Of a stretch of DNA of 8,739 nt, positions 1,923 through 8,739 are shown piece by piece (position 1 is the stretch's first letter; the number at the start of each line of letters is the position of its first letter). The notes under the pieces were generated by a model that was not told the origin of the DNA, searched no databases, and worked only from the letters and a program-made list of their open reading frames with translations. Position numbers and translations under genes: made by a program. Origin of the DNA: a virus (Duplodnaviria; Heunggongvirae; Uroviricota; Caudoviricetes); IMG/VR virus record IMGVR_UViG_2681813233_000012, positions 1 to 8,739 of that record; one strand, 5' to 3'.

Positions 1923-4298
1923 ATGGCCACCCAACCAACAAATAACGCAGTGCCAAGCGAATCACCCCGTGATCTGAAGTTTAACGCGGGGAAAATTGAT
2001 GAGTTCGTTACGTCTGAGAATCATGATTATGTTGACAGATTTGGCAATAAACATCGTACAATTGAAGGCATAAATTACGATTCGAACCAGGCAATTCTGA
2101 ATTATGGCTATATCACGAAGGATTCTTTTGAAGATGGCAGCACCATTAGCCTTGCTAACGAGTGCTTACGCTGGAAGAGCAACGGCGAGTACTACAGATG
2201 GGATGGGTCACTCCCCAAAGTAGTTCCCCCTGGCTCTACTCCGGAAGGCACTGGTGGGCTAGGGAAAGGTAAGTGGGTTGGTGTCGGAGATGCATCTTTG
2301 CGATCGGCAATGAAGAATGAGAATGGTACTGATTTAATTAATGGAACAAAATCTGTTGTTGGGTCAGTTACAAGATCACTAACAGATATGTTGTCAGACA
2401 AGATATCCGTGCGGGATTTTGGCGGAATTGATGACTATGATGGAACAAATGCATCAACATGCACTAACAACAGAATTCCATTTCAACGGTATTTTGAATA
2501 TCTTAATTCAATTGGCGGTGGCGATCTAAATATTCCACGTAAATTAACCGGGAAATATTTTATTAGTGGTGATGACCACACACAAGTTACCTCTAAAGTT
2601 CGTTTAAATACTGACGAAGGTGTATCTATACATCTTGATTTCTCTGGAGGTGCTTCAAATACTCCATTTGCCAATCTCGATTTAAGGGCATCGAGCCAGA
2701 TAAAGATTGAGTATGTTAATTTTGGTTATCCGTCATATGTTGGTGGTAGCGTAGACACGCCATTTAGTGACTCTTTGCAAACCATGAACAATGGTGATGG
2801 TATTTACACGGTGCCAGAAGTACTATCAGGTAGTGATTTTAAAGTCATTTCATTGGGAAATAGCTCTGTTGAAATACCACCGTTATCAACATCCGGAGAT
2901 ACAATCTCTTTTAATGGCGGAGGGGTTCCAACTGCAGCAGTCATCAGCGTGACTCCTGGTGACGAAATTATGGCGTTAATAGGCTCGAATTCGCTTGGGG
3001 GAATTATTGCCGGTGTCGTCACGGTTAATGGCTATGCTTATGTTTCTCAAGATACTTCTAGTGGTAATATTACCCTTGCAGAAGGCACGATAGGGCAGCC
3101 AAATATACTAACTGGTCTTAATTATGCTCTCATGGATCAGCTAAGAGATCGGTTTGACCGTGCTATCATAACAGTAAAAATTACTTCATCGAGAACCTTT
3201 ACCGTTATGGCTAACGGTCTGGCAATATGCAGTCATACCACCAGGTCTAGTATTCTTGGCGCTTGTCTTGGTACTTCCGACATTAATAGTATTGTGAATG
3301 TATCACAAATGTCTCGAGTTAGAGGGCATAGTTTTTCCGGGTCCAAGCCTTTGAGGATATTGGTTTGCGGAGATTCAATTACCGATCAAAATAATCAATA
3401 TTCATGGGCCAAATATCTCCAGATGCAGTTGGGCTCAGCTGGCGTTAACATTGCAGAGATAAATAATTTAGCAGTGGCTGGACAGACAGCGGCCCAACAA
3501 CTCAGCATCCTGAAAACTGTTGGTGTAGGATATGATATCTGCCTGATACAGGTTGGTGTAAATGATGTTCAGTTACAGACTCCGGTAGCATCCTTCATTT
3601 CGACAATAAATGAAATGGTCACTTACGCGAAGGGGATTGGAGCATTTCCGATTGTTGGTGTACCCACGGCTTTTTATTCTCTTGCAGAGGCGAATGCTAA
3701 TGGGCAAACGGGAGGGCAAAACACATCAAACAACTCTTCGATAGGGATGTACCGATCGCTTCTTATTCGTGCTGTTGCAGCAGCTGGCGGAATTGTTAAC
3801 CTTGAGCCTATGAAAGGACATGGAGCTATGACGGCTAAGTGGCTGTCACTGAAACCGTATGCCGTCAGCGATAGCATCGTGCTGGACAATATTCACCCCA
3901 CTCCATATGGGTCGATGCTCCTGGCACAAGGATATGCGCGATGCATTCTTGGATGGCTTACTAGGCCTGACATGACACCAACGGAAAGCTTTGAATTTAT
4001 TCCTAGCGGGTGGCTTAGCCCAGGATTTGGCGAAACATCGATCCCTAAAATTAAAGGAAGGGAGTTCTCTGGGTTGATAAGTCTGCATGCAACAAATATC
4101 AATGATGGTTCAGTGGCCTTCACTTTGCCACCATCATTTAAAGTAGATAACGTTAAGATGCTTGCGGTGACAGGGACAAACAGTTCCGGGCTTCCGGTAG
4201 GTGTTTGTAATTTATATGTTGGGACAGACGGGAAGTGTTACTTCTTTAATATTCCAGAAGGAGTTACCCAAGTATCAATGGACGGTGTGGTTTTATAG
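1923..4298 (+). CDS. Tailspike / tail fibre protein with a C-terminal SGNH-hydrolase (polysaccharide esterase) domain, 791 aa
   Basis: N-terminal ~115 aa adaptor-like region, then a segment typical of the start of pectate-lyase-like beta-helix tailspikes (ISVRDFGGIDDYDG...IPRKLTGKYFISGDD). All SGNH blocks are present in order: GDSIT (Ser485, nt 3375..3377), block II Gly in NLAVAGQT (Gly520), GVNDV (Asn547), DNIH (Asp655/His658, nt 3885..3896). A further ~130-aa C-terminal domain follows. Confidence 0.85.
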   Translation: MATQPTNNAVPSESPRDLKFNAGKIDEFVTSENHDYVDRFGNKHRTIEGINYDSNQAILNYGYITKDSFEDGSTISLANECLRWKSNGEYYRWDGSLPKVVPPGSTPEGTGGLGKGKWVGVGDASLRSAMKNENGTDLINGTKSVVGSVTRSLTDMLSDKISVRDFGGIDDYDGTNASTCTNNRIPFQRYFEYLNSIGGGDLNIPRKLTGKYFISGDDHTQVTSKVRLNTDEGVSIHLDFSGGASNTPFANLDLRASSQIKIEYVNFGYPSYVGGSVDTPFSDSLQTMNNGDGIYTVPEVLSGSDFKVISLGNSSVEIPPLSTSGDTISFNGGGVPTAAVISVTPGDEIMALIGSNSLGGIIAGVVTVNGYAYVSQDTSSGNITLAEGTIGQPNILTGLNYALMDQLRDRFDRAIITVKITSSRTFTVMANGLAICSHTTRSSILGACLGTSDINSIVNVSQMSRVRGHSFSGSKPLRILVCGDSITDQNNQYSWAKYLQMQLGSAGVNIAEINNLAVAGQTAAQQLSILKTVGVGYDICLIQVGVNDVQLQTPVASFISTINEMVTYAKGIGAFPIVGVPTAFYSLAEANANGQTGGQNTSNNSSIGMYRSLLIRAVAAAGGIVNLEPMKGHGAMTAKWLSLKPYAVSDSIVLDNIHPTPYGSMLLAQGYARCILGWLTRPDMTPTESFEFIPSGWLSPGFGETSIPKIKGREFSGLISLHATNINDGSVAFTLPPSFKVDNVKMLAVTGTNSSGLPVGVCNLYVGTDGKCYFFNIPEGVTQVSMDGVVL

Positions 4299-4302
4299 TT
4301 CC

Positions 4303-4326
4303 GTGTGGGAGGTCTCCCTCCCACAC
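4303..4326. terminator. 10-bp GC-rich hairpin between convergent genes (candidate bidirectional terminator)
   Basis: GTGTGGGAGG at 4303..4312 is the exact reverse complement of CCTCCCACAC at 4317..4326, with a 4-nt loop. It lies between the tailspike stop (4298) and the stop of the - strand gene (4333). There is no clean U-tract on either side, so terminator function is inferred. Confidence 0.5.
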
Positions 4327-4332
4327 TCACTA

Positions 4333-5412
4333 TTAATTGTAAGGGGTTTCTCTTTCCATTTCTAAAACTATGGCTCTGAAATTTCTATTAAACTCATAAC
4401 CAGGTTTATTATGTAACTCTGCATTTATGCAGTCTCCTAGAAGAGAACTTCTGATTCTAGCACCATACCCATTGGTATGATAAGCAGAGTCCATAAATAA
4501 TTTTCCTCCAAGATTAGACGCGCTTGGTGCGCAAATAACGTTAATACCAGCAACAGAAAGCAAACCCTTAAGTTTCATTAACGACTGCATGGTTTGTCCA
4601 TTATCAGTGTCAAACCCCGGATTTCGCATCGTAACAGGCCATGTAATAAATAATTTCCCACCTTTATTAGAAACAAAATTATTTATTTCCTTGAGTGTTG
4701 TATATGTATGTTCAGATATTTTAGGAATGTCTGAGTTATATGTAAATGTGCCATTATACACAGAATCGTAAACAGTTTTACCGTCAATAAAAACATTGAT
4801 GTCACCGTTTTTATTTAGACTTTTATAACTGTACCCATTATATTCACCATTGGTAGAGTTAAGATGATTGATGACATCACTCAACGGTGAAACCAGGCCT
4901 TTATCTTCTGCATTAAATCCTTCAACTAACCTTTTGGGGCTAACATTCATCATGAACTTTATACGGTTATAAATGTTGATGCTTGATAGGTAATCCTGGC
5001 CCCACCCCAATATATTATTAACAAACCAATCAGTTGGTGCTTCCGTACGTGTGTAGTACTCATACTCAAGCGGCATTACAACGATATCACCATTTTTAAA
5101 ATGCTTTTTTAATTGATAAAAATGATAGTTTATATCTAGCTCTGCATGCGTTGCAATATTTACAACTGGAAGTGATGTTTTATGGGAAATAATTTCACTA
5201 TTTATAGAAAATAAGCTATTCGACCCGCTAGAGATTATTATTTTTTTCCCATTTATCCTGTCAGCGGCAACGCCTTTAAAATCAATTACGTTCTTTAGCC
5301 ACCACCCACCTACAACCTGCTTTCCTTCCTGCATTTTGAAAGCATAAATAAACGTCCCAGCGGCAAATGCAAGTATTGCTAAGAATATAGAGAAGCTGAA
5401 TTTATAATTCAC
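4333..5412 (-). CDS. Membrane-anchored SGNH/DltD-like (PatB/AlgJ-class) protein, predicted periplasmic partner of the upstream MBOAT acyltransferase, 359 aa
   Basis: GTG start at 5410..5412 preceded by AAGGG 6 nt upstream, 9 bp after the MBOAT stop, suggesting an operon. N-terminal hydrophobic anchor (FSIFLAILAFAAGTFIYAF). Ser-rich motif IISSGSNS (res 59..66) near the N-terminus and DSAYH (Asp308/His312) near the C-terminus, the SGNH-like order of nucleophile then Asp/His. Very AT-rich. Confidence 0.6.
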   Translation of the reverse strand: MNYKFSFSIFLAILAFAAGTFIYAFKMQEGKQVVGGWWLKNVIDFKGVAADRINGKKIIISSGSNSLFSINSEIISHKTSLPVVNIATHAELDINYHFYQLKKHFKNGDIVVMPLEYEYYTRTEAPTDWFVNNILGWGQDYLSSINIYNRIKFMMNVSPKRLVEGFNAEDKGLVSPLSDVINHLNSTNGEYNGYSYKSLNKNGDINVFIDGKTVYDSVYNGTFTYNSDIPKISEHTYTTLKEINNFVSNKGGKLFITWPVTMRNPGFDTDNGQTMQSLMKLKGLLSVAGINVICAPSASNLGGKLFMDSAYHTNGYGARIRSSLLGDCINAELHNKPGYEFNRNFRAIVLEMERETPYN

Positions 5413-5421
5413 TGTTCGCCC

Positions 5422-6267
5422 TTAAAAATTGAAGTAAATAAAGGATCCGGGAGCCGCCCCACCCAAGGAAGCAGTCACTGCAATGCAAACGCCAAAGGCA
5501 CACAGGCATGGAGCAAGCAGATTCCACGCTATACCACTCTTATGTTCTTTGGTCATCTCCATGAAAACATTAGAATTTACATTAATTAAGCACGTCATAA
5601 TGGCAATGGCGCAAACAGCTATCATATAGAAACCACCTTTCGATGCCTCATAGAGGAAAGAGTCCGCAAAAGGTTGAGCATATTTAAATCCGGAAACCAA
5701 AGAATCGTAACCAGCAAACATTTTCTTTAGCAAACTAAAAGCATCATTTAAGTTATCTGTTCTGAAGAAAATCCAGGTGATATTCACGTAATTGAATGTT
5801 ATAAACCAACCTACAACGCTCGGCATGCGAAAGCCATTTTGTGACCAATACCTGTGAATGACAAGCCCAGCCCCGTGTAAAGCGCCCCACGCCAAAAAAT
5901 TCCATCCAGCTCCATGCCAGAAACCGCCGATCAAAAACGTCAAAAACAGGTTTAGATATGTGCGTAATACACCATTTCGGTTTCCGCCAAGAGGAATGTA
6001 GACATAATTCCTGAGCCACGTGGAAAGGGTAATGTGCCAGCGTCTCCAGAAATCTTGAAGGTCTGTTGCTATGTATGGTGAATTGAAGTTGATAGGCAGC
6101 ACAACGCCAAACAGAAGGGCCGAGCCAATCGCCATGTCAGTATATCCGGAGAAATCAAAGTATAACTGGATACTGTATGAGAGGCTGGTTATCCATGCCT
6201 CCAAAGCACCAAGGGCTGAGATATTTGCATAACCTTGATCCGCTATAGAGCCAAAATATGAAGACAA
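5422..6267 (-). CDS. MBOAT-family membrane-bound O-acyltransferase (AlgI/DltB/PatA-like), C-terminal portion; the frame is open upstream to 6357
   Basis: Contains the MBOAT signature region: YFDFSGYTDMAIG, FWRRWHITLSTWLRNYVYIPLGGNR and GGFWHGAGWNFLAWGALHG (conserved His). The ORF-track start at 6267 is a TTG; the same frame stays open to a TAA at 6358..6360. Confidence 0.8.
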   Translation of the reverse strand: MSSYFGSIADQGYANISALGALEAWITSLSYSIQLYFDFSGYTDMAIGSALLFGVVLPINFNSPYIATDLQDFWRRWHITLSTWLRNYVYIPLGGNRNGVLRTYLNLFLTFLIGGFWHGAGWNFLAWGALHGAGLVIHRYWSQNGFRMPSVVGWFITFNYVNITWIFFRTDNLNDAFSLLKKMFAGYDSLVSGFKYAQPFADSFLYEASKGGFYMIAVCAIAIMTCLINVNSNVFMEMTKEHKSGIAWNLLAPCLCAFGVCIAVTASLGGAAPGSFIYFNF

Positions 6268-6334
6268 GACAACTTTTTTGAATATTCCGACACTAAATAT
6301 AAATACTGCGGGAACGAAATATTTCCCGAAATAA

Positions 6335-6859
6335 TTATCCCTTGAGTTGGTTTGTAATTACATCATAATTTGTTATCGGGCCAGAGATGAGCTTAGGGAA
6401 AAACAAAATGTAGCAGCAATAATTTAATATTGAAATGTTAGATATCTGTTTTCTATACAAACTAACTGATAAAGAAATCTGCTGAAATGTATAGAAGCTT
6501 ATGGCTAACGGCGCAATAACATTCATGTGGCCTATATTTAGGTTGAAAATACTAGATATGTTACTTGCAAAGAAGTTGCAGTATTTAAAATAACCAAGAG
6601 ATGCCACGTTAAATATAACTGATAATGCTACATATAATTTTGTCTTTTCAGATTTCATCATTGTTAATATTGCGTAGTTTATCAGCATCGATATCAACAA
6701 AAGAGGCAAGAAATTAAATGTGAAAAAAGTATAGAAATACAGGCTAGCGCAACAAATCCACACCTTGGAGAGAGCAATGTTAAATTTTTTCAGGAAAAGG
6801 AATATCAATACCACCAAAGGTAAAAACATTACAGAATATTCTAACGAGTTAAATAACAT
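6335..6859 (-). CDS. MBOAT-family O-acyltransferase, N-terminal portion (same gene as 5422..6267, separated by a frameshift)
   Basis: ATG at 6857..6859 with AAGG/AGGGA upstream. Typical AlgI/DltB N-terminus: multiple TM helices, ISFYTFQQISL and FFPKLISGPI motifs. Ends at TAA 6335..6337 in a frame offset by one from the C-terminal portion. Confidence 0.8.
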   Translation of the reverse strand: MLFNSLEYSVMFLPLVVLIFLFLKKFNIALSKVWICCASLYFYTFFTFNFLPLLLISMLINYAILTMMKSEKTKLYVALSVIFNVASLGYFKYCNFFASNISSIFNLNIGHMNVIAPLAISFYTFQQISLSVSLYRKQISNISILNYCCYILFFPKLISGPITNYDVITNQLKG

Positions 6860-7110
6860 GCCTTATCCCTTATATAAGTTATCAATCAAGTTTAAACCGC
6901 TATCAGAACACCAAATTCGCTTATCCATTCATGAACCTCTTCCACGCGCAATCTGCAACCACACTTAACATCCATGGTATTAACTTTAATTCCTAAAATT
7001 AGTGACATGGAGTTTACCACTACAGAGAAATCTGATCATTACTTGATCGAAAGAAGGGAACGTGGTGCTGTGCGTATACACAGCAATGGTCGGAGAAGCA
7101 TCTCTGATCC
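6860..7110 (-). promoter_or_regulatory. Putative regulatory region of the MBOAT operon (RBS, weak sigma70-like elements, cluster of three GATC sites)
   Basis: Shine-Dalgarno-like AAGG immediately 5' of the ATG. Candidate -35/-10 (TTTAAA / TATATA on the - strand) has sub-optimal spacing. GATC at 7034..7037, 7045..7048 and 7106..7109. No experimental support. Confidence 0.3.
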
Positions 7111-7405
7111 CATATGCTCGCTCTTTGGTGGTTTGCAGAATGGAAGGCGAGTTGAGGATAAGGCGATATCGTAAATCATCAACTCCTCACCTGGAGGAAT
7201 TGCAGACGGGGAGGCGTAAAAGATACCAGTGCACGATGACGGAACTAGCCCGGATGCGATCTTTGGGATGTTCACCTACATCATCCACGATGTTCGCTCT
7301 GACGAGTTCGACGACTTTCTGGTGATGTGATGGGGCATGGATGAGGAAAACATTATCGAAAACAACCCAAAACAGATGGAGTTGAGAGGTGTCTTGCACC
7401 ATTTC

Positions 7406-8560
7406 TCACAACTTACCATCAAGCCAGTCTGCCCACCACTGCATCATCTCCCTGCGCTTATCCATGTACTGAGCGTGATTGTATATCCCACGAATGGAGC
7501 CGCTGTTAGCGTGCGCCAGTTGCTTCTCTATGGCATCAGCAGGCCACTCGTGCTCATTCATTATTGTGCTGAACTGGTGCCGGAAACCATGTCCACTGGC
7601 GAGGCCCTCGTAGCCTATCTGCCGAATAACCAGCAGAACGGCGTTTTCACTGAGCGGCTTTGTTTTGTCATTGCGCCCGGCGAACACGAAGCTTGATATC
7701 GGCTGCGTTACCGGCCTCAGGGTTTCAAGCAAAGAGACAACTTGATCTGACATTGGGACAAGGTGGGGGCGGCGGCCTTTCATCACCTCTTCGGTGATCG
7801 TAATCGTCCTGGTTTCGAAATCGACGTTCGACCATTGCATAGACCTGAGTTCTTTAGTCCTGAGCACGGTGTACTGCAATACCTGCGTCGCAATCTTCGA
7901 TACGATGCTGCCAGAGAAGCCAGCCAGAGCCTTATTGAATTCCGGTATCTGGTCTGCAGGAAGGAAGGGGTAGTTCTTTTTCCGGTATCCCTTCATGGCA
8001 TCAGCAAGGTCAGGAGCCGGGTTATATTTCGCTCTCCCGGTAACTATCGCGTACCTGAATACTTCCCCGCACCTCCTCCGCGCCTTATTGGCCCGCTCCA
8101 TTGCTCCACGGTCTTCGAACCTGCGGATCACTTCCAGTATCTGCATTGGTTCTATCTCGTTAATCTCCATCCCGCCAATCAACGGCAGAATGTCATCCTG
8201 GAACATGCGTGACAGTTCGGTGCTGTACACTTCTGACCATACCTGTTTTTTGTGCTCGTACCATTCTTGGTATATAGAGCCGAAAGAGTTGTCTTTAACT
8301 GACAGTTTTTTAGCCTTTACAGGATCGACGCCGAGAGACACATCCTTTTTGGCAAGCCAAGCTTTGTCTCTGGCTTCCTGCAATGACATGAGCGGGTATT
8401 TGCCTACCGTCAGAACCTTCTCTTTACCATCGAGCTTGTAACGCAGCTGCCAGACTTTCTTTCCGGTAACCGGAACATAAAGGTACAGTCCGTTGCTGTC
8501 GAGTAGCCGGTACGGTTTATCTTTCGGCTTTGCCGCGTCGATCTGCTTGATGGTGAGCAT
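7406..8560 (-). CDS. intS: Tyrosine integrase, P4/IntS-type (site-specific recombinase with N-terminal arm-binding domain), 384 aa
   Basis: N-terminus MLTIKQIDAAKPKDKPYRLLDSNGLYLYV is typical of P4-family integrases. Catalytic-domain motifs HGFRHQFST (HxxR) and a C-terminal Tyr region (IRGIYNHAQY). It sits next to the 3' end of an argW-type tRNA in the same orientation, as for IntS of the E. coli K-12 CPS-53/KplE1 prophage. The symbol is assigned by this context and recalled similarity, not by a search. Confidence 0.9.
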   Translation of the reverse strand: MLTIKQIDAAKPKDKPYRLLDSNGLYLYVPVTGKKVWQLRYKLDGKEKVLTVGKYPLMSLQEARDKAWLAKKDVSLGVDPVKAKKLSVKDNSFGSIYQEWYEHKKQVWSEVYSTELSRMFQDDILPLIGGMEINEIEPMQILEVIRRFEDRGAMERANKARRRCGEVFRYAIVTGRAKYNPAPDLADAMKGYRKKNYPFLPADQIPEFNKALAGFSGSIVSKIATQVLQYTVLRTKELRSMQWSNVDFETRTITITEEVMKGRRPHLVPMSDQVVSLLETLRPVTQPISSFVFAGRNDKTKPLSENAVLLVIRQIGYEGLASGHGFRHQFSTIMNEHEWPADAIEKQLAHANSGSIRGIYNHAQYMDKRREMMQWWADWLDGKL

Positions 8561-8585
8561 GGGTAAAATTCCGGAGGGTAAAATT
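8561..8585 (+). repeat. Two direct copies of GGGTAAAATT (8561..8570, 8576..8585) abutting the int start codon
   Basis: Exact 10-bp direct repeat separated by 5 bp (CCGGA). On the - strand it reads AATTTTACCC-TCCGG-AATTTTACCC-ATG. Confidence 0.6.
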
Positions 8586-8595
8586 ATTTACTCGT

Positions 8596-8625
8596 TTTTT
8601 ACCCGCCGAAGCATGCGGCTGTCAA
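8596..8625 (-). promoter_or_regulatory. Candidate sigma70 promoter for int (-35 TTGACA, 18-bp spacer, -10 TAAAAA)
   Basis: On the - strand, TTGACA (8620..8625) and TAAAAA (8596..8601) are separated by 18 nt, ~35 nt upstream of the int ATG. Confidence 0.35.
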
Positions 8626-8634
8626 CGTTCTATT

Positions 8635-8714
8635 GCGAACTATGGCGAACTAATATTTTATTGAGAGCTTGCTGTGTAAGGGATTTTGCGAACTACTGCG
8701 GAGAGTGGCGAACT
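8635..8714 (+). repeat. Four direct copies of GCGAACT (8635..8641, 8645..8651, 8688..8694, 8708..8714): candidate integrase arm-type binding sites in the att region
   Basis: Heptamer repeated four times in the same orientation, in two pairs, between the tRNA 3' end and the int promoter. Arm-type sites of P4/lambda-family integrases are short direct repeats in this position. Confidence 0.5.
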
Positions 8715-8720
8715 GTGAAA

Positions 8721-8739
8721 TGGTGTCCCCTGCAGGAAT
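8721..8739 (-). tRNA. argW: 3' end of a tRNA-Arg gene (argW-type, anticodon CCU), partial: only the last 19 nt including CCA are in the window
   Basis: Reverse complement of 8721..8739 is ATTCCTGCAGGGGACACCA, which matches my recollection of the 3' terminus (T-arm, acceptor stem, CCA) of E. coli argW. The gene continues beyond the window end. Confidence 0.6.

What the first reader, a model, noticed from the sequence alone, without database searches (positions are those of the whole stretch)
4333..6859. Prophage-borne MBOAT plus SGNH/DltD-like two-gene O-acylation module in the lysogenic-conversion slot
Between the tailspike and the integrase, where temperate enterobacterial phages usually carry gtrABC or an acyltransferase-3 O-acetylase (Oac/OafA type), this element carries an MBOAT membrane acyltransferase followed 9 bp later by a membrane-anchored SGNH-like protein. 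That pairing is the architecture of the PatA/PatB (peptidoglycan), AlgI/AlgJ/AlgX (alginate), WssH/WssI (cellulose) and DltB/DltD (teichoic acid) O-acylation systems. I am not aware of this two-component type being described as a phage serotype-conversion module, so it may be an undescribed phage-encoded surface-glycan acylation system. The target is unknown; O-antigen, capsule, ECA or peptidoglycan are all possible.
Basis: partly seen in the sequence, partly recalled or inferred. Interest (0 to 1): 0.85.

Follow-up and report, generated by a model that had tools for sequence, protein, structure and literature searches.

The report
Broken prophage MBOAT sugar-acetylation gene pair
An E. coli prophage carries, next to its tailspike gene, a two-gene system (a membrane acyltransferase plus an uncharacterised periplasmic partner) that most likely acetylates the cell's surface sugar coat. 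A comparable two-gene system is already reported in one Pseudomonas phage, and in this strain the first gene is broken by a 5-base deletion.

Summary
On the minus strand, between a tailspike (1923-4298) and an integrase (7406-8560) of an E. coli prophage at tRNA-Arg(CCT)/argW, lies an MBOAT gene (5422-6859). Nine bases later comes a 359-aa membrane-anchored protein (4333-5412).

The pair sits side by side in about 30 of 36 genomes from many phyla, usually among glycan-synthesis genes. It lies downstream of the tailspike in all 7 related viral contigs. Sister E. coli prophages carry an acyltransferase-3 gene in that position.

Two things reduce the claim. First, the MBOAT here is a pseudogene. 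One copy of a CAACT-CAACT tandem repeat is lost, and all six assemblies of this lineage that I checked share the loss. A near-identical prophage keeps an intact 480-aa gene.

Second, the architecture is not undescribed. Pseudomonas phage JBD44 gp41 (MBOAT, 46% identical) and gp40 (AlgX-type) are reported to acetylate O-antigen.

Verdict: a new variant of a known kind, with a new partner family. The O-antigen target is inferred, not shown.

The parts
5422..6859 (-). MBOAT membrane acyltransferase gene, frameshifted. The N-terminal ORF is 6335-6859 (174 aa); the C-terminal ORF is 5422-6267 (that frame is open from about 6357). The catalytic-type His of the FWHG motif lies in the C-terminal part.
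   Evidence: PF03062 at 1.1e-28 on the C-terminal ORF. The NCBIfam DltB model hits both halves below its cut-off. The intact 480-aa allele in L045 scores PF03062 2.7e-35 and DltB structures 4e-30, with FWHG aligned to GFWHG. It is 46% identical over 393 aa to JBD44 gp41.
6345..6349 (-). The single remaining CAACT. The intact allele has CAACTCAACT, so loss of one 5-bp copy shifts the frame and gives a TAA stop at 6335-6337.
   Evidence: Alignment with L045. The same gap-free sequence occurs in L039-L043, at 99.96% identity. Apart from the 5-bp gap, only four single-base differences separate the window from L045 across the module.
4333..5412 (-). Partner protein, 359 aa. It has an N-terminal hydrophobic helix (residues about 3-27) and then an SGNH-fold domain. 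Ser64 sits in a GSN motif after strand 1, and His312 in a YHxN motif after the last strand.
4303..4326 (.). GC-rich 10-bp-stem hairpin between the convergent tailspike and partner genes. It is probably a shared transcription terminator.
   Evidence: Fold energy -21.8 kcal/mol, z = -4.2 against shuffles. The consensus terminator scan did not list it.
1923..4298 (+). Tailspike, 791 aa: an N-terminal TSP1/Gp66-type domain and a C-terminal GDSL/SGNH esterase domain (aa 482-663). It converges on the module and travels with it.
   Evidence: Pfam. The N-terminus matches solved tailspikes, including G7C gp63.1. The same tailspike type lies next to the module in L001, L003, L004 and L045-L048.
7406..8560 (-). 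Tyrosine integrase of the prophage.
   Evidence: PF00589, PF22022 and PF13356. It lies next to tRNA-Arg(CCT) in L039.
8721..8739 (-). The last 19 nt of tRNA-Arg(CCT) (argW), the attachment-site end of the prophage, cut by the window edge.
   Evidence: The window's reverse complement starts at L039:6674. The tRNA-Arg is at L039:6618-6692.

Best explanation
This is a prophage-borne, two-component, extracytoplasmic glycan O-acylation (most likely O-acetylation) module sitting in the lysogenic-conversion position.

Proposed mechanism, for the intact allele:
1. The 480-aa MBOAT takes an acyl group from a cytoplasmic donor. By analogy with AlgI, PatA and WssH the donor is acetyl-CoA. It passes the group across the inner membrane using its conserved His.
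2. The partner is anchored by one N-terminal helix, and its SGNH-fold domain faces the periplasm. It accepts the acyl group on Ser64, with His312 as the base. The acid residue is uncertain; D109 and E116 are the invariant candidates.
3. The partner transfers the group to a hydroxyl of a surface polysaccharide, most probably the O-antigen.
4. This alters the receptor that the phage's own tailspike and rival phages recognise. The result is superinfection exclusion and protection of released progeny.

In this window's E. coli lineage the MBOAT is inactivated by loss of one copy of a 5-bp tandem repeat, so the module is probably silent here.

Shown: the gene identities, the partner's fold, the conserved residues, the synteny, the position in the prophage, purifying selection, and the frameshift. 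Inferred: the donor, the topology, the transferase direction, the O-antigen target and the phage-exclusion phenotype.
For: - MBOAT identity and conserved His.
- Partner SGNH fold, with the longest alignments to DltD (221-223 residues) and hits to PatB, OatA-C and the OafB SGNH domain, all of which are acyl-transfer partners.
- Invariant Ser64 and His312 in 65 diverse homologues.
- The MBOAT gene lies immediately upstream of the partner in about 30 of 36 genomic loci across many phyla.
- Neighbours in non-phage loci are mostly GT2, epimerase/dehydratase, GDP-mannose dehydratase, Polysacc_synt_2, ABC-2/Wzt_C and GT9 genes. No alginate, cellulose, dlt or peptidoglycan genes appear among the 25 most frequent neighbour families.
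- All 7 IMG/VR contigs with the partner show TipJ, tailspike, then partner and MBOAT on the opposite strand.
- Sister E. coli prophages have an acyltransferase-3 gene (PF01757 confirmed for M37H; 'acyltransferase family protein' in the RefSeq annotation of the other three) in the same place, whether the tailspike is GDSL-type or beta-helix.
- Three prophage remnants (E. coli YZ22MPE6, Ewingella, Cedecea) keep both genes intact while the rest of the phage is gone.
- dN/dS is 0.06-0.12 for both genes.
- The MBOAT is 46% identical to JBD44 gp41, one of two genes reported to acetylate O-antigen and protect progeny phage.
Against: - No biochemical or phenotypic data exist for this family.
- The target is inferred only from gene position and from the neighbours of distant homologues. 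The neighbour enrichment had no formal control.
- The block III Asn and block V Asp of classical SGNH enzymes are not conserved, so the catalytic details are uncertain.
- The partner is unrelated in sequence to JBD44 gp40, so the analogy rests on the MBOAT half and on architecture.
- In the window itself the MBOAT is frameshifted. The partner also carries Gly36 where nearly all homologues have Glu.
- I could not retrieve the primary source for the JBD44 statement (reference 46 of the preprint).
Confidence: 0.62

Rival explanations
1. The module acylates a different envelope polymer, such as capsule, colanic acid, enterobacterial common antigen, cellulose or PNAG. It would benefit the lysogen, for example through biofilm formation or immune evasion, rather than change the phage receptor.
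For: Known MBOAT plus SGNH-like pairs act on exopolysaccharides (alginate, cellulose), as reviewed in PMC9558356. The glycan-cluster neighbours of distant homologues do not separate O-antigen from capsule.
Against: No alg, bcs/wss or pga genes appear among the 25 most frequent neighbour families. The module is tied to the tailspike gene in every phage copy. It replaces acyltransferase-3 genes at the position downstream of the tailspike, and tailspikes of this type normally read O-antigen or capsule.
Confidence: 0.17
2. It is a PatA/PatB-like peptidoglycan O-acetylation system that hardens the lysogen's wall against lysozymes or the lytic enzymes of incoming phages.
Against: No ape-type esterase or cell-wall genes are among the frequent neighbours; glycan-synthesis genes dominate. 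The match to PatB is no better than to dozens of generic SGNH esterases. The closest characterised MBOAT in a phage is linked to O-antigen acetylation.
Confidence: 0.08
3. It is a DltB/DltD-like system that transfers D-alanine or another non-acetyl group.
For: DltB is the best solved-structure and NCBIfam sequence match for the MBOAT. DltD gives the longest structural alignment to the partner.
Against: The DltB model score is far below its cut-off (122.8 against 375). No DltA ligase or DltC carrier gene is in the window or among the frequent neighbours. E. coli has no teichoic acids. No Pfam family, DltD included, reached E <= 0.01 for the window protein, and none of the seven families with any member hit among the 65 homologues was DltD.
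Confidence: 0.03
4. It is decaying cargo with no present function in any copy. The conserved architecture reflects common descent only.
For: The window lineage carries a frameshift that is fixed in all six assemblies checked. An umuD-like gene next door is also degraded.
Against: All other enterobacterial copies examined are intact at 480 and 359 aa, with dN/dS about 0.1. The intact MBOAT allele is on 45 contigs, against 10 for the truncated product. Three remnants kept the pair while losing the phage.
Confidence: 0.08

Closest known systems
Pseudomonas phage JBD44 gp41/gp40 (two-gene O-antigen acetylation and superinfection-exclusion system; Taylor et al., bioRxiv 10.1101/2024.03.05.583538)
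   Same: Both have an MBOAT gene followed within about 10 bp by a roughly 360-aa second gene, convergent with the tailspike of a temperate phage. The MBOATs are 46% identical over 393 aa. The JBD44 pair is reported to acetylate O-antigen.
   Different: JBD44 gp40 is an AlgX/DHHW-type protein (PF16822, 6.7e-13). It has no detectable sequence relation to the partner here. The host is Pseudomonas, not Enterobacteriaceae. The JBD44 genes are intact.
DltB/DltD (teichoic acid D-alanylation)
   Different: There is no DltA or DltC here. No Pfam family, DltD included, reached E <= 0.01 for the partner. The NCBIfam DltB score is far below its cut-off. The host is Gram-negative.
PatA/PatB, AlgI/AlgJ/AlgX and WssH/WssI (MBOAT-dependent O-acetylation of peptidoglycan, alginate and cellulose)
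   Different: There is no sequence membership: ALGX gave one marginal hit among 65 homologues. The genomic setting is a prophage and glycan clusters, not alg, wss or ape operons.
Phage acyltransferase-3 O-antigen acetylases (Oac of Sf6, OafA/OafB; AT3 with or without a fused SGNH domain)
   Different: The membrane component belongs to an unrelated family (PF01757 against PF03062). The 2022 review stated that AT3 and MBOAT were known to share a function only in peptidoglycan O-acetylation.

Membership tests
MBOAT (Pfam PF03062) | Profile match above the curated cut-off | tested here: met
   C-terminal ORF: 100.9 bits against a cut-off of 27. Intact allele in L045: 122.7 bits over residues 40-362.
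MBOAT (Pfam PF03062) | Conserved catalytic-type histidine in a membrane helix | tested here: met
   The FWHG motif (WHG at position 316 of the intact protein) aligns with GFWHG of DltB and GGLWHG of JBD44 gp41.
MBOAT (Pfam PF03062) | One uninterrupted reading frame encoding the whole multi-pass protein | tested here: not met
   A 5-bp deletion at 6345-6349 splits the gene. All six assemblies checked share it.
SGNH hydrolase superfamily (fold) | Three-layer alpha/beta/alpha fold similar to solved SGNH enzymes | tested here: met
SGNH hydrolase superfamily (sequence blocks) | Block I Ser nucleophile and block V His | tested here: met
   G63-S64 follow strand 1, and H312 follows the last strand. 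All three are invariant in 65 homologues. Assigning them to blocks I and V is inferred from secondary-structure order, not from a superposition.
SGNH hydrolase superfamily (sequence blocks) | Block III GxND Asn and block V DxxH Asp; a match to the GDSL profiles | tested here: not met
   The block III position reads MPLE116. The Asp four residues before His312 alternates between D and N. PF00657 and PF13472 do not hit.
DltD family | Match to DltD sequence models, with DltA and DltC encoded alongside | tested here: not met
   No Pfam family, DltD included, reached E <= 0.01 for the window protein, and DltD was not among the seven families with any hit in the 65 homologues. No PDB sequence hit with the family profile. 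No dltA or dltC in the window or among the frequent neighbours. The similarity is structural only.
AlgX/AlgJ/DHHW family (PF16822, PF14286) | Profile match and the D-x-H...S residue order | tested here: not met
   The window protein gives no hit. One of 65 homologues hits ALGX marginally at 2.7e-3. hhalign against JBD44 gp40 gives probability 0.3. The residue order here is Ser then His.
PatB-type peptidoglycan O-acetyltransferase | Specific similarity to PatB and a link to ape and cell-wall genes | tested here: inconclusive
Phage two-gene MBOAT O-antigen acetylation module (JBD44 gp40-41 type) | Homologous MBOAT next to the tailspike of a temperate phage | tested here: met
   46% identity, E 5e-125. 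The layout is the same.
Phage two-gene MBOAT O-antigen acetylation module (JBD44 gp40-41 type) | Homologous second gene | tested here: not met
   BLASTP E 4.3. hhalign probability 0.3.
Phage two-gene MBOAT O-antigen acetylation module (JBD44 gp40-41 type) | Acetylation of O-antigen and exclusion of the phage | not testable with these tools
   This needs LPS chemistry and adsorption assays.
Acyltransferase-3 O-antigen acetylases (Oac/OafA) | PF01757 domain | tested here: not met
   PF01757 hits neither protein. It is present in the equivalent gene of the sister prophage in L002.

The most novel reading that the evidence does not exclude
The 359-aa partner founds a large, unnamed family of MBOAT-coupled periplasmic glycan O-acyltransferases. 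The family has about 3000 clusters at 50% identity with E <= 1e-10, no Pfam model and no solved relative by sequence. It would be a further SGNH-like solution to this task beside AlgX/AlgJ, PatB/WssI and DltD.

In enterobacterial phages this pair has taken over the O-antigen acetylation role usually played by acyltransferase-3. It often travels as a cassette with an esterase tailspike. If so, one phage would carry both a writer and an eraser of sugar acetylation.
Probability: 0.45. Interest if true: 0.62.

Novelty: new variant of a known kind. Interest (0 to 1): 0.48.

Why it matters
If the intact module acetylates O-antigen, this would extend MBOAT-based serotype conversion to enterobacteria. 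So far that role in enterobacteria is attributed to gtr genes and acyltransferase-3 genes.

It would also give a function to a sizeable 'hypothetical protein' family that always sits beside an MBOAT in glycan clusters across many phyla.

It matters in practice as well. Such modules change O-antigen chemistry without changing the O-antigen gene cluster. This affects in-silico serotyping, phage-therapy host range and vaccine epitopes.

The naturally broken and intact alleles differ in the module by one 5-bp deletion and four single-base changes. That makes a nearly matched pair for testing the phenotype.

Tried and rejected
- **Partner sequence searches.** Pfam, NCBIfam and a profile search of PDB sequences found nothing meaningful. 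Scanning 65 diverse family members gave only single marginal hits, to DUF1574 and ALGX.
- **Deposited phage genomes.** Nucleotide search of the module against 50,697 phage genomes gave no match. tblastn with the partner also gave none.
- **'Bacteriophage sp.' faecal contigs.** MBOAT hits in 37 of these looked promising. The four extra phage records I opened (three faecal contigs and Pseudomonas phage Y5) are all marked UNVERIFIED. Next to the MBOAT the three faecal contigs carry, respectively, a GDSL-type gene, a DHHW/ALGX-type gene and a thioredoxin-like protein, and one also has a MatE transporter beside it. They may not be phages, and the partner-family HMM did not hit them. I do not use them as evidence.
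- **Relation to JBD44 gp40.** A relation between the partner and gp40 was tested and rejected.
- **An exclusive link to esterase tailspikes.** I considered and dropped this. L049-L051 pair a 35%-identical module with a beta-helix tailspike, and strain 53 pairs a beta-helix tailspike with an acyltransferase-family gene.
- **Promoter and terminator scan.** The consensus scan of 4200-7450 found no more sites than shuffled sequence.
- **Programmed frameshifting or sequencing error.** Both were rejected as explanations of the split MBOAT. Six independent assemblies share the break, and the intact allele differs by one copy of a 5-bp repeat.
- **Unavailable resources.** The afdb50 fold library was not available. 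BFVD gave only weak generic SGNH matches. The primary reference for JBD44 serotype O10 conversion could not be found in the paper library.
Full report
**What is in the sequence.** The window is a whole 8739-bp contig of an E. coli draft genome (GCA_001576375.1 LOOX01000240.1, reversed). Its layout is as follows.

| Coordinates | Strand | Feature |
|---|---|---|
| 40-1866 | + | C-terminal part of a TipJ-like tail protein |
| 1923-4298 | + | 791-aa tailspike: TSP1/Gp66-type N-terminal domain and a GDSL/SGNH esterase domain at aa 482-663 |
| 4303-4326 |. | Strong hairpin (-21.8 kcal/mol, z = -4.2) |
| 4333-5412 | - | 359-aa ORF, the partner |
| 5413-5421 | . | 9-nt gap |
| 5422-6859 | - | MBOAT gene |
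| 7086-7327 | + | Degraded umuD-like remnant |
| 7406-8560 | - | Tyrosine integrase |
| 8721-8739 | - | Last 19 nt of tRNA-Arg(CCT) |

Longer contigs of the same lineage continue into yfdC-mlaA-yfdF-fadL-fadI, and those flanks are 99.8% identical to E. coli. GC content drops to 0.30-0.40 over the module, against about 0.5 around it.

**The MBOAT is real but broken here.** PF03062 matches the C-terminal ORF (1.1e-28). The NCBIfam DltB model touches both halves, far below its cut-off.

An IMG/VR contig, L045, carries the same prophage arm. Its TipJ and tailspike proteins are 100% identical to the window's, and its partner differs by one residue. Its MBOAT is intact at 480 aa.

The only length difference is that L045 reads CAACTCAACT where the window reads CAACT (6345-6349). 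Losing one 5-bp copy shifts the frame and creates the stop at 6335-6337. Five other assemblies of the window's lineage are 99.96% identical across the module, with no gaps. The break is therefore a fixed mutation, not a sequencing error.

Across public data the intact protein is on 45 contigs and the 174-aa truncated product on 10. The intact protein aligns with solved DltB structures (4e-30), with its FWHG motif on the catalytic-His motif of DltB.

**The partner is an SGNH-fold protein from an unnamed family.** It matches nothing in Pfam, NCBIfam or PDB sequences, even with a 25-sequence profile. An AlphaFold model built from that alignment is confident (pLDDT 88.4, pTM 0.88).

- Foldseek puts rhamnogalacturonan acetylesterase and DltD at the top.

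The model has an N-terminal helix over residues 3-27, which are plainly hydrophobic in the sequence.

An exhaustive profile search finds 4627 clusters at 50% identity with E <= 1e-3, and 3019 with E <= 1e-10. In 65 diverse members, G63, S64, N85, D109, E116, W137 and H312 are invariant. Ser64 follows the first strand and His312 follows the last. These are the usual places for the SGNH nucleophile and base. The classical block III Asn and block V Asp are not kept. None of the 65 members hits a Pfam family convincingly.

**The two genes belong together.** In 36 species-representative genomes that encode a relative of the partner, about 30 have an MBOAT gene immediately upstream. These genomes include Campylobacterota, Desulfobacterota, Gammaproteobacteria, Melainabacteria, Bacteroidota and others. 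The main exceptions are short contigs that end just upstream of the partner.

The 131 neighbouring proteins in the non-phage loci are dominated by glycosyltransferases, sugar-nucleotide epimerases and dehydratases, Polysacc_synt_2, ABC-2/Wzt_C transporters and heptosyltransferases. No alginate, cellulose, dlt or peptidoglycan genes appear among the 25 most frequent neighbour families. This enrichment has no formal control and should be read as a trend.

Both genes are under purifying selection (dN/dS 0.06-0.12).

**Its place in phages.** All seven IMG/VR contigs that encode the partner show the same order: TipJ, tailspike, then partner and MBOAT on the opposite strand.

Four other settings also hold intact copies of both genes next to a tailspike gene:
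- E. coli YZ22MPE6 and LF4-1, where the cassette sits beside an IS1 between yiiG and frv.
- Ewingella americana and Cedecea davisae, where it sits among host genes.

These look like prophage remnants that kept the pair.

Sister E. coli prophages with the same tail genes carry an acyltransferase-family gene directly after the tailspike. PF01757 was confirmed for M37H; for the other three the label comes from the RefSeq annotation. This holds for GDSL-type tailspikes (M37H, XJ5.2, 20A24) and for a beta-helix tailspike (strain 53). The position is thus a recurrent acyltransferase slot, and here the MBOAT pair fills it.

The module is not tied to esterase tailspikes. L049-L051 combine a 35%-identical module with a beta-helix tailspike.

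**Is it new?** A 2022 review of bacterial sugar acyltransferases says that MBOAT and acyltransferase-3 proteins were known to share a function only in peptidoglycan O-acetylation. It lists alginate, cellulose, peptidoglycan and teichoic acid as the MBOAT targets (PMC9558356).

However, a protein search of deposited phage genomes found MBOATs in ten Pseudomonas phage records, among them JBD44, JBD88b, JBD94b, LC3I3 and DO4. In JBD44, gp41 is an MBOAT (PF03062, 4e-38). It is followed 12 bp later by gp40, an ALGX-type SGNH-like protein (6.7e-13). Both converge on the tailspike gene gp39 and lie near the integrase.

Taylor et al. [quoted passage not shown] They also report that a lysogen of the gp40-41 deletion accumulates about 10^4-fold fewer free phages. 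I could not retrieve the reference they cite for the acetylation.

The E. coli MBOAT is 46% identical to gp41 over 393 residues. The partner has no detectable relation to gp40. So the architecture and its use by a temperate phage are already on record. What is new is its presence in enterobacterial phages and a different, uncharacterised partner family.

**Most likely mechanism and its limits.** By analogy with AlgI/AlgJ-AlgX, PatA/PatB, WssH/WssI and JBD44 gp41/gp40, the proposed sequence is:
1. The MBOAT moves an acetyl group from cytoplasmic acetyl-CoA to the periplasmic face.
2. The anchored partner takes it on Ser64, with His312 as base.
3. The partner places it on a surface glycan, most probably the O-antigen that the adjacent tailspike reads.
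4. The lysogen becomes a poor target for the same and related phages.

The gene identities, fold, conserved residues, synteny, position in the prophage and selection are shown. The donor, topology, transferase direction, target and phenotype are inferred. In this window the system is very probably off because the MBOAT is truncated.

Rival targets (capsule or other exopolysaccharide, peptidoglycan) and a Dlt-like chemistry are less likely, for the reasons given under each rival, but they are not excluded.

**Verdict.** I rate it a new variant of a known kind, of moderate interest. Its main value is the unnamed partner family and a natural pair of intact and broken alleles for experiments.

Noticed in passing
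window 1923-4298: The tailspike carries a GDSL/SGNH esterase domain (aa 482-663). Its N-terminus resembles solved tailspikes, including the esterase tailspike gp63.1 of phage G7C. The phage may therefore carry both an acetyl-removing tailspike and an acetyl-adding conversion module. Whether they act on the same group is unknown.
   Followed up: partly
window 6345-6349 (compare L045:2208-2217): The inactivating lesion is the loss of one copy of a two-copy 5-bp tandem repeat (CAACTCAACT to CAACT). This is a slippage-type change that could in principle revert. Both alleles circulate in E. coli: 45 contigs for the intact protein and 10 for the truncated one.
   Followed up: yes
window 5305-5307 (partner residue 36): The window's partner has Gly36, while the near-identical L045 allele and nearly all homologues have Glu (the AEWW motif). 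This is the one amino-acid difference between the two alleles and it falls at a conserved position. It may reflect relaxed selection after the MBOAT broke, or chance.
   Followed up: partly
window 7086-7327 (+): A degraded umuD/HumD-like (S24 peptidase) gene. Only residues about 48-92 and 104-129 are recognisable, in two different frames. Sister prophages have intact umuD-like, Y-family polymerase and SRAP genes here.
   Followed up: partly
window 7034-7048; L047; L049 and L051 upstream of the MBOAT: A pair of GATC sites 11-13 bp apart lies 130-190 bp upstream of the MBOAT start in two unrelated upstream sequences. The groups are window/L045/L047 and L049/L051. In the second group the pair sits beside a perfect LexA box, TACTGTGTTTATATACAGTA. 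This recalls Dam-dependent phase variation of gtr operons. I did not test it.
   Followed up: no
window 7400-8739 compared with L045:1-1330: The window and L045 differ by only seven single-base changes plus the 5-bp deletion from position 18 to about 7400. From the 3' end of the integrase gene onward they are about 17% divergent (integrase proteins 83% identical). This marks a sharp recombination boundary between the integrase and the cargo and tail module.
   Followed up: partly
L001 (E. coli YZ22MPE6, NZ_CP139339.1 4398107-4402784): A stand-alone cassette sits beside an IS1 between yiiG and the frv genes, far from argW. It holds an N-terminally truncated GDSL tailspike, an intact partner and an intact MBOAT. 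RefSeq annotates the MBOAT as 418 aa, but the ORF is 480 aa.
   Followed up: partly
P0013, P0017, P0018, P0019, P0023 (alignment A1 columns 400-520): Some partner homologues, from Arcobacter and other Campylobacterota, carry a C-terminal extension of about 120 aa. It gives marginal hits to the type II secretion pseudopilin G family (PF08334, 1.6e-3). Its function is unknown.
   Followed up: no
L009 (Oleiphilus MAG) 7268-11017; L018 and L023: One MBOAT is followed by two tandem partner paralogues in Oleiphilus. Two loci (L018, L023) carry a second MBOAT a few kb away. The system appears to diversify by duplication.
   Followed up: no
cluster members: Only two members carry serotype labels: an MBOAT fragment from E. 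coli O119 and a tailspike from E. coli O109:H45. A paper title cited in PMC7685785 links the O109 and O119 O-antigens through shared L-RhaN3N derivatives. This may hint at the receptor, but it rests on only two cases.
   Followed up: no
L002, L053, L054, L055 (E. coli prophages at argW or next to yciB): In this prophage lineage the gene after the tailspike is an acyltransferase-family gene in the four sister prophages examined, whatever the tailspike type. Tailspike and acyltransferase seem to be exchanged together as a receptor-specificity cassette.
   Followed up: partly
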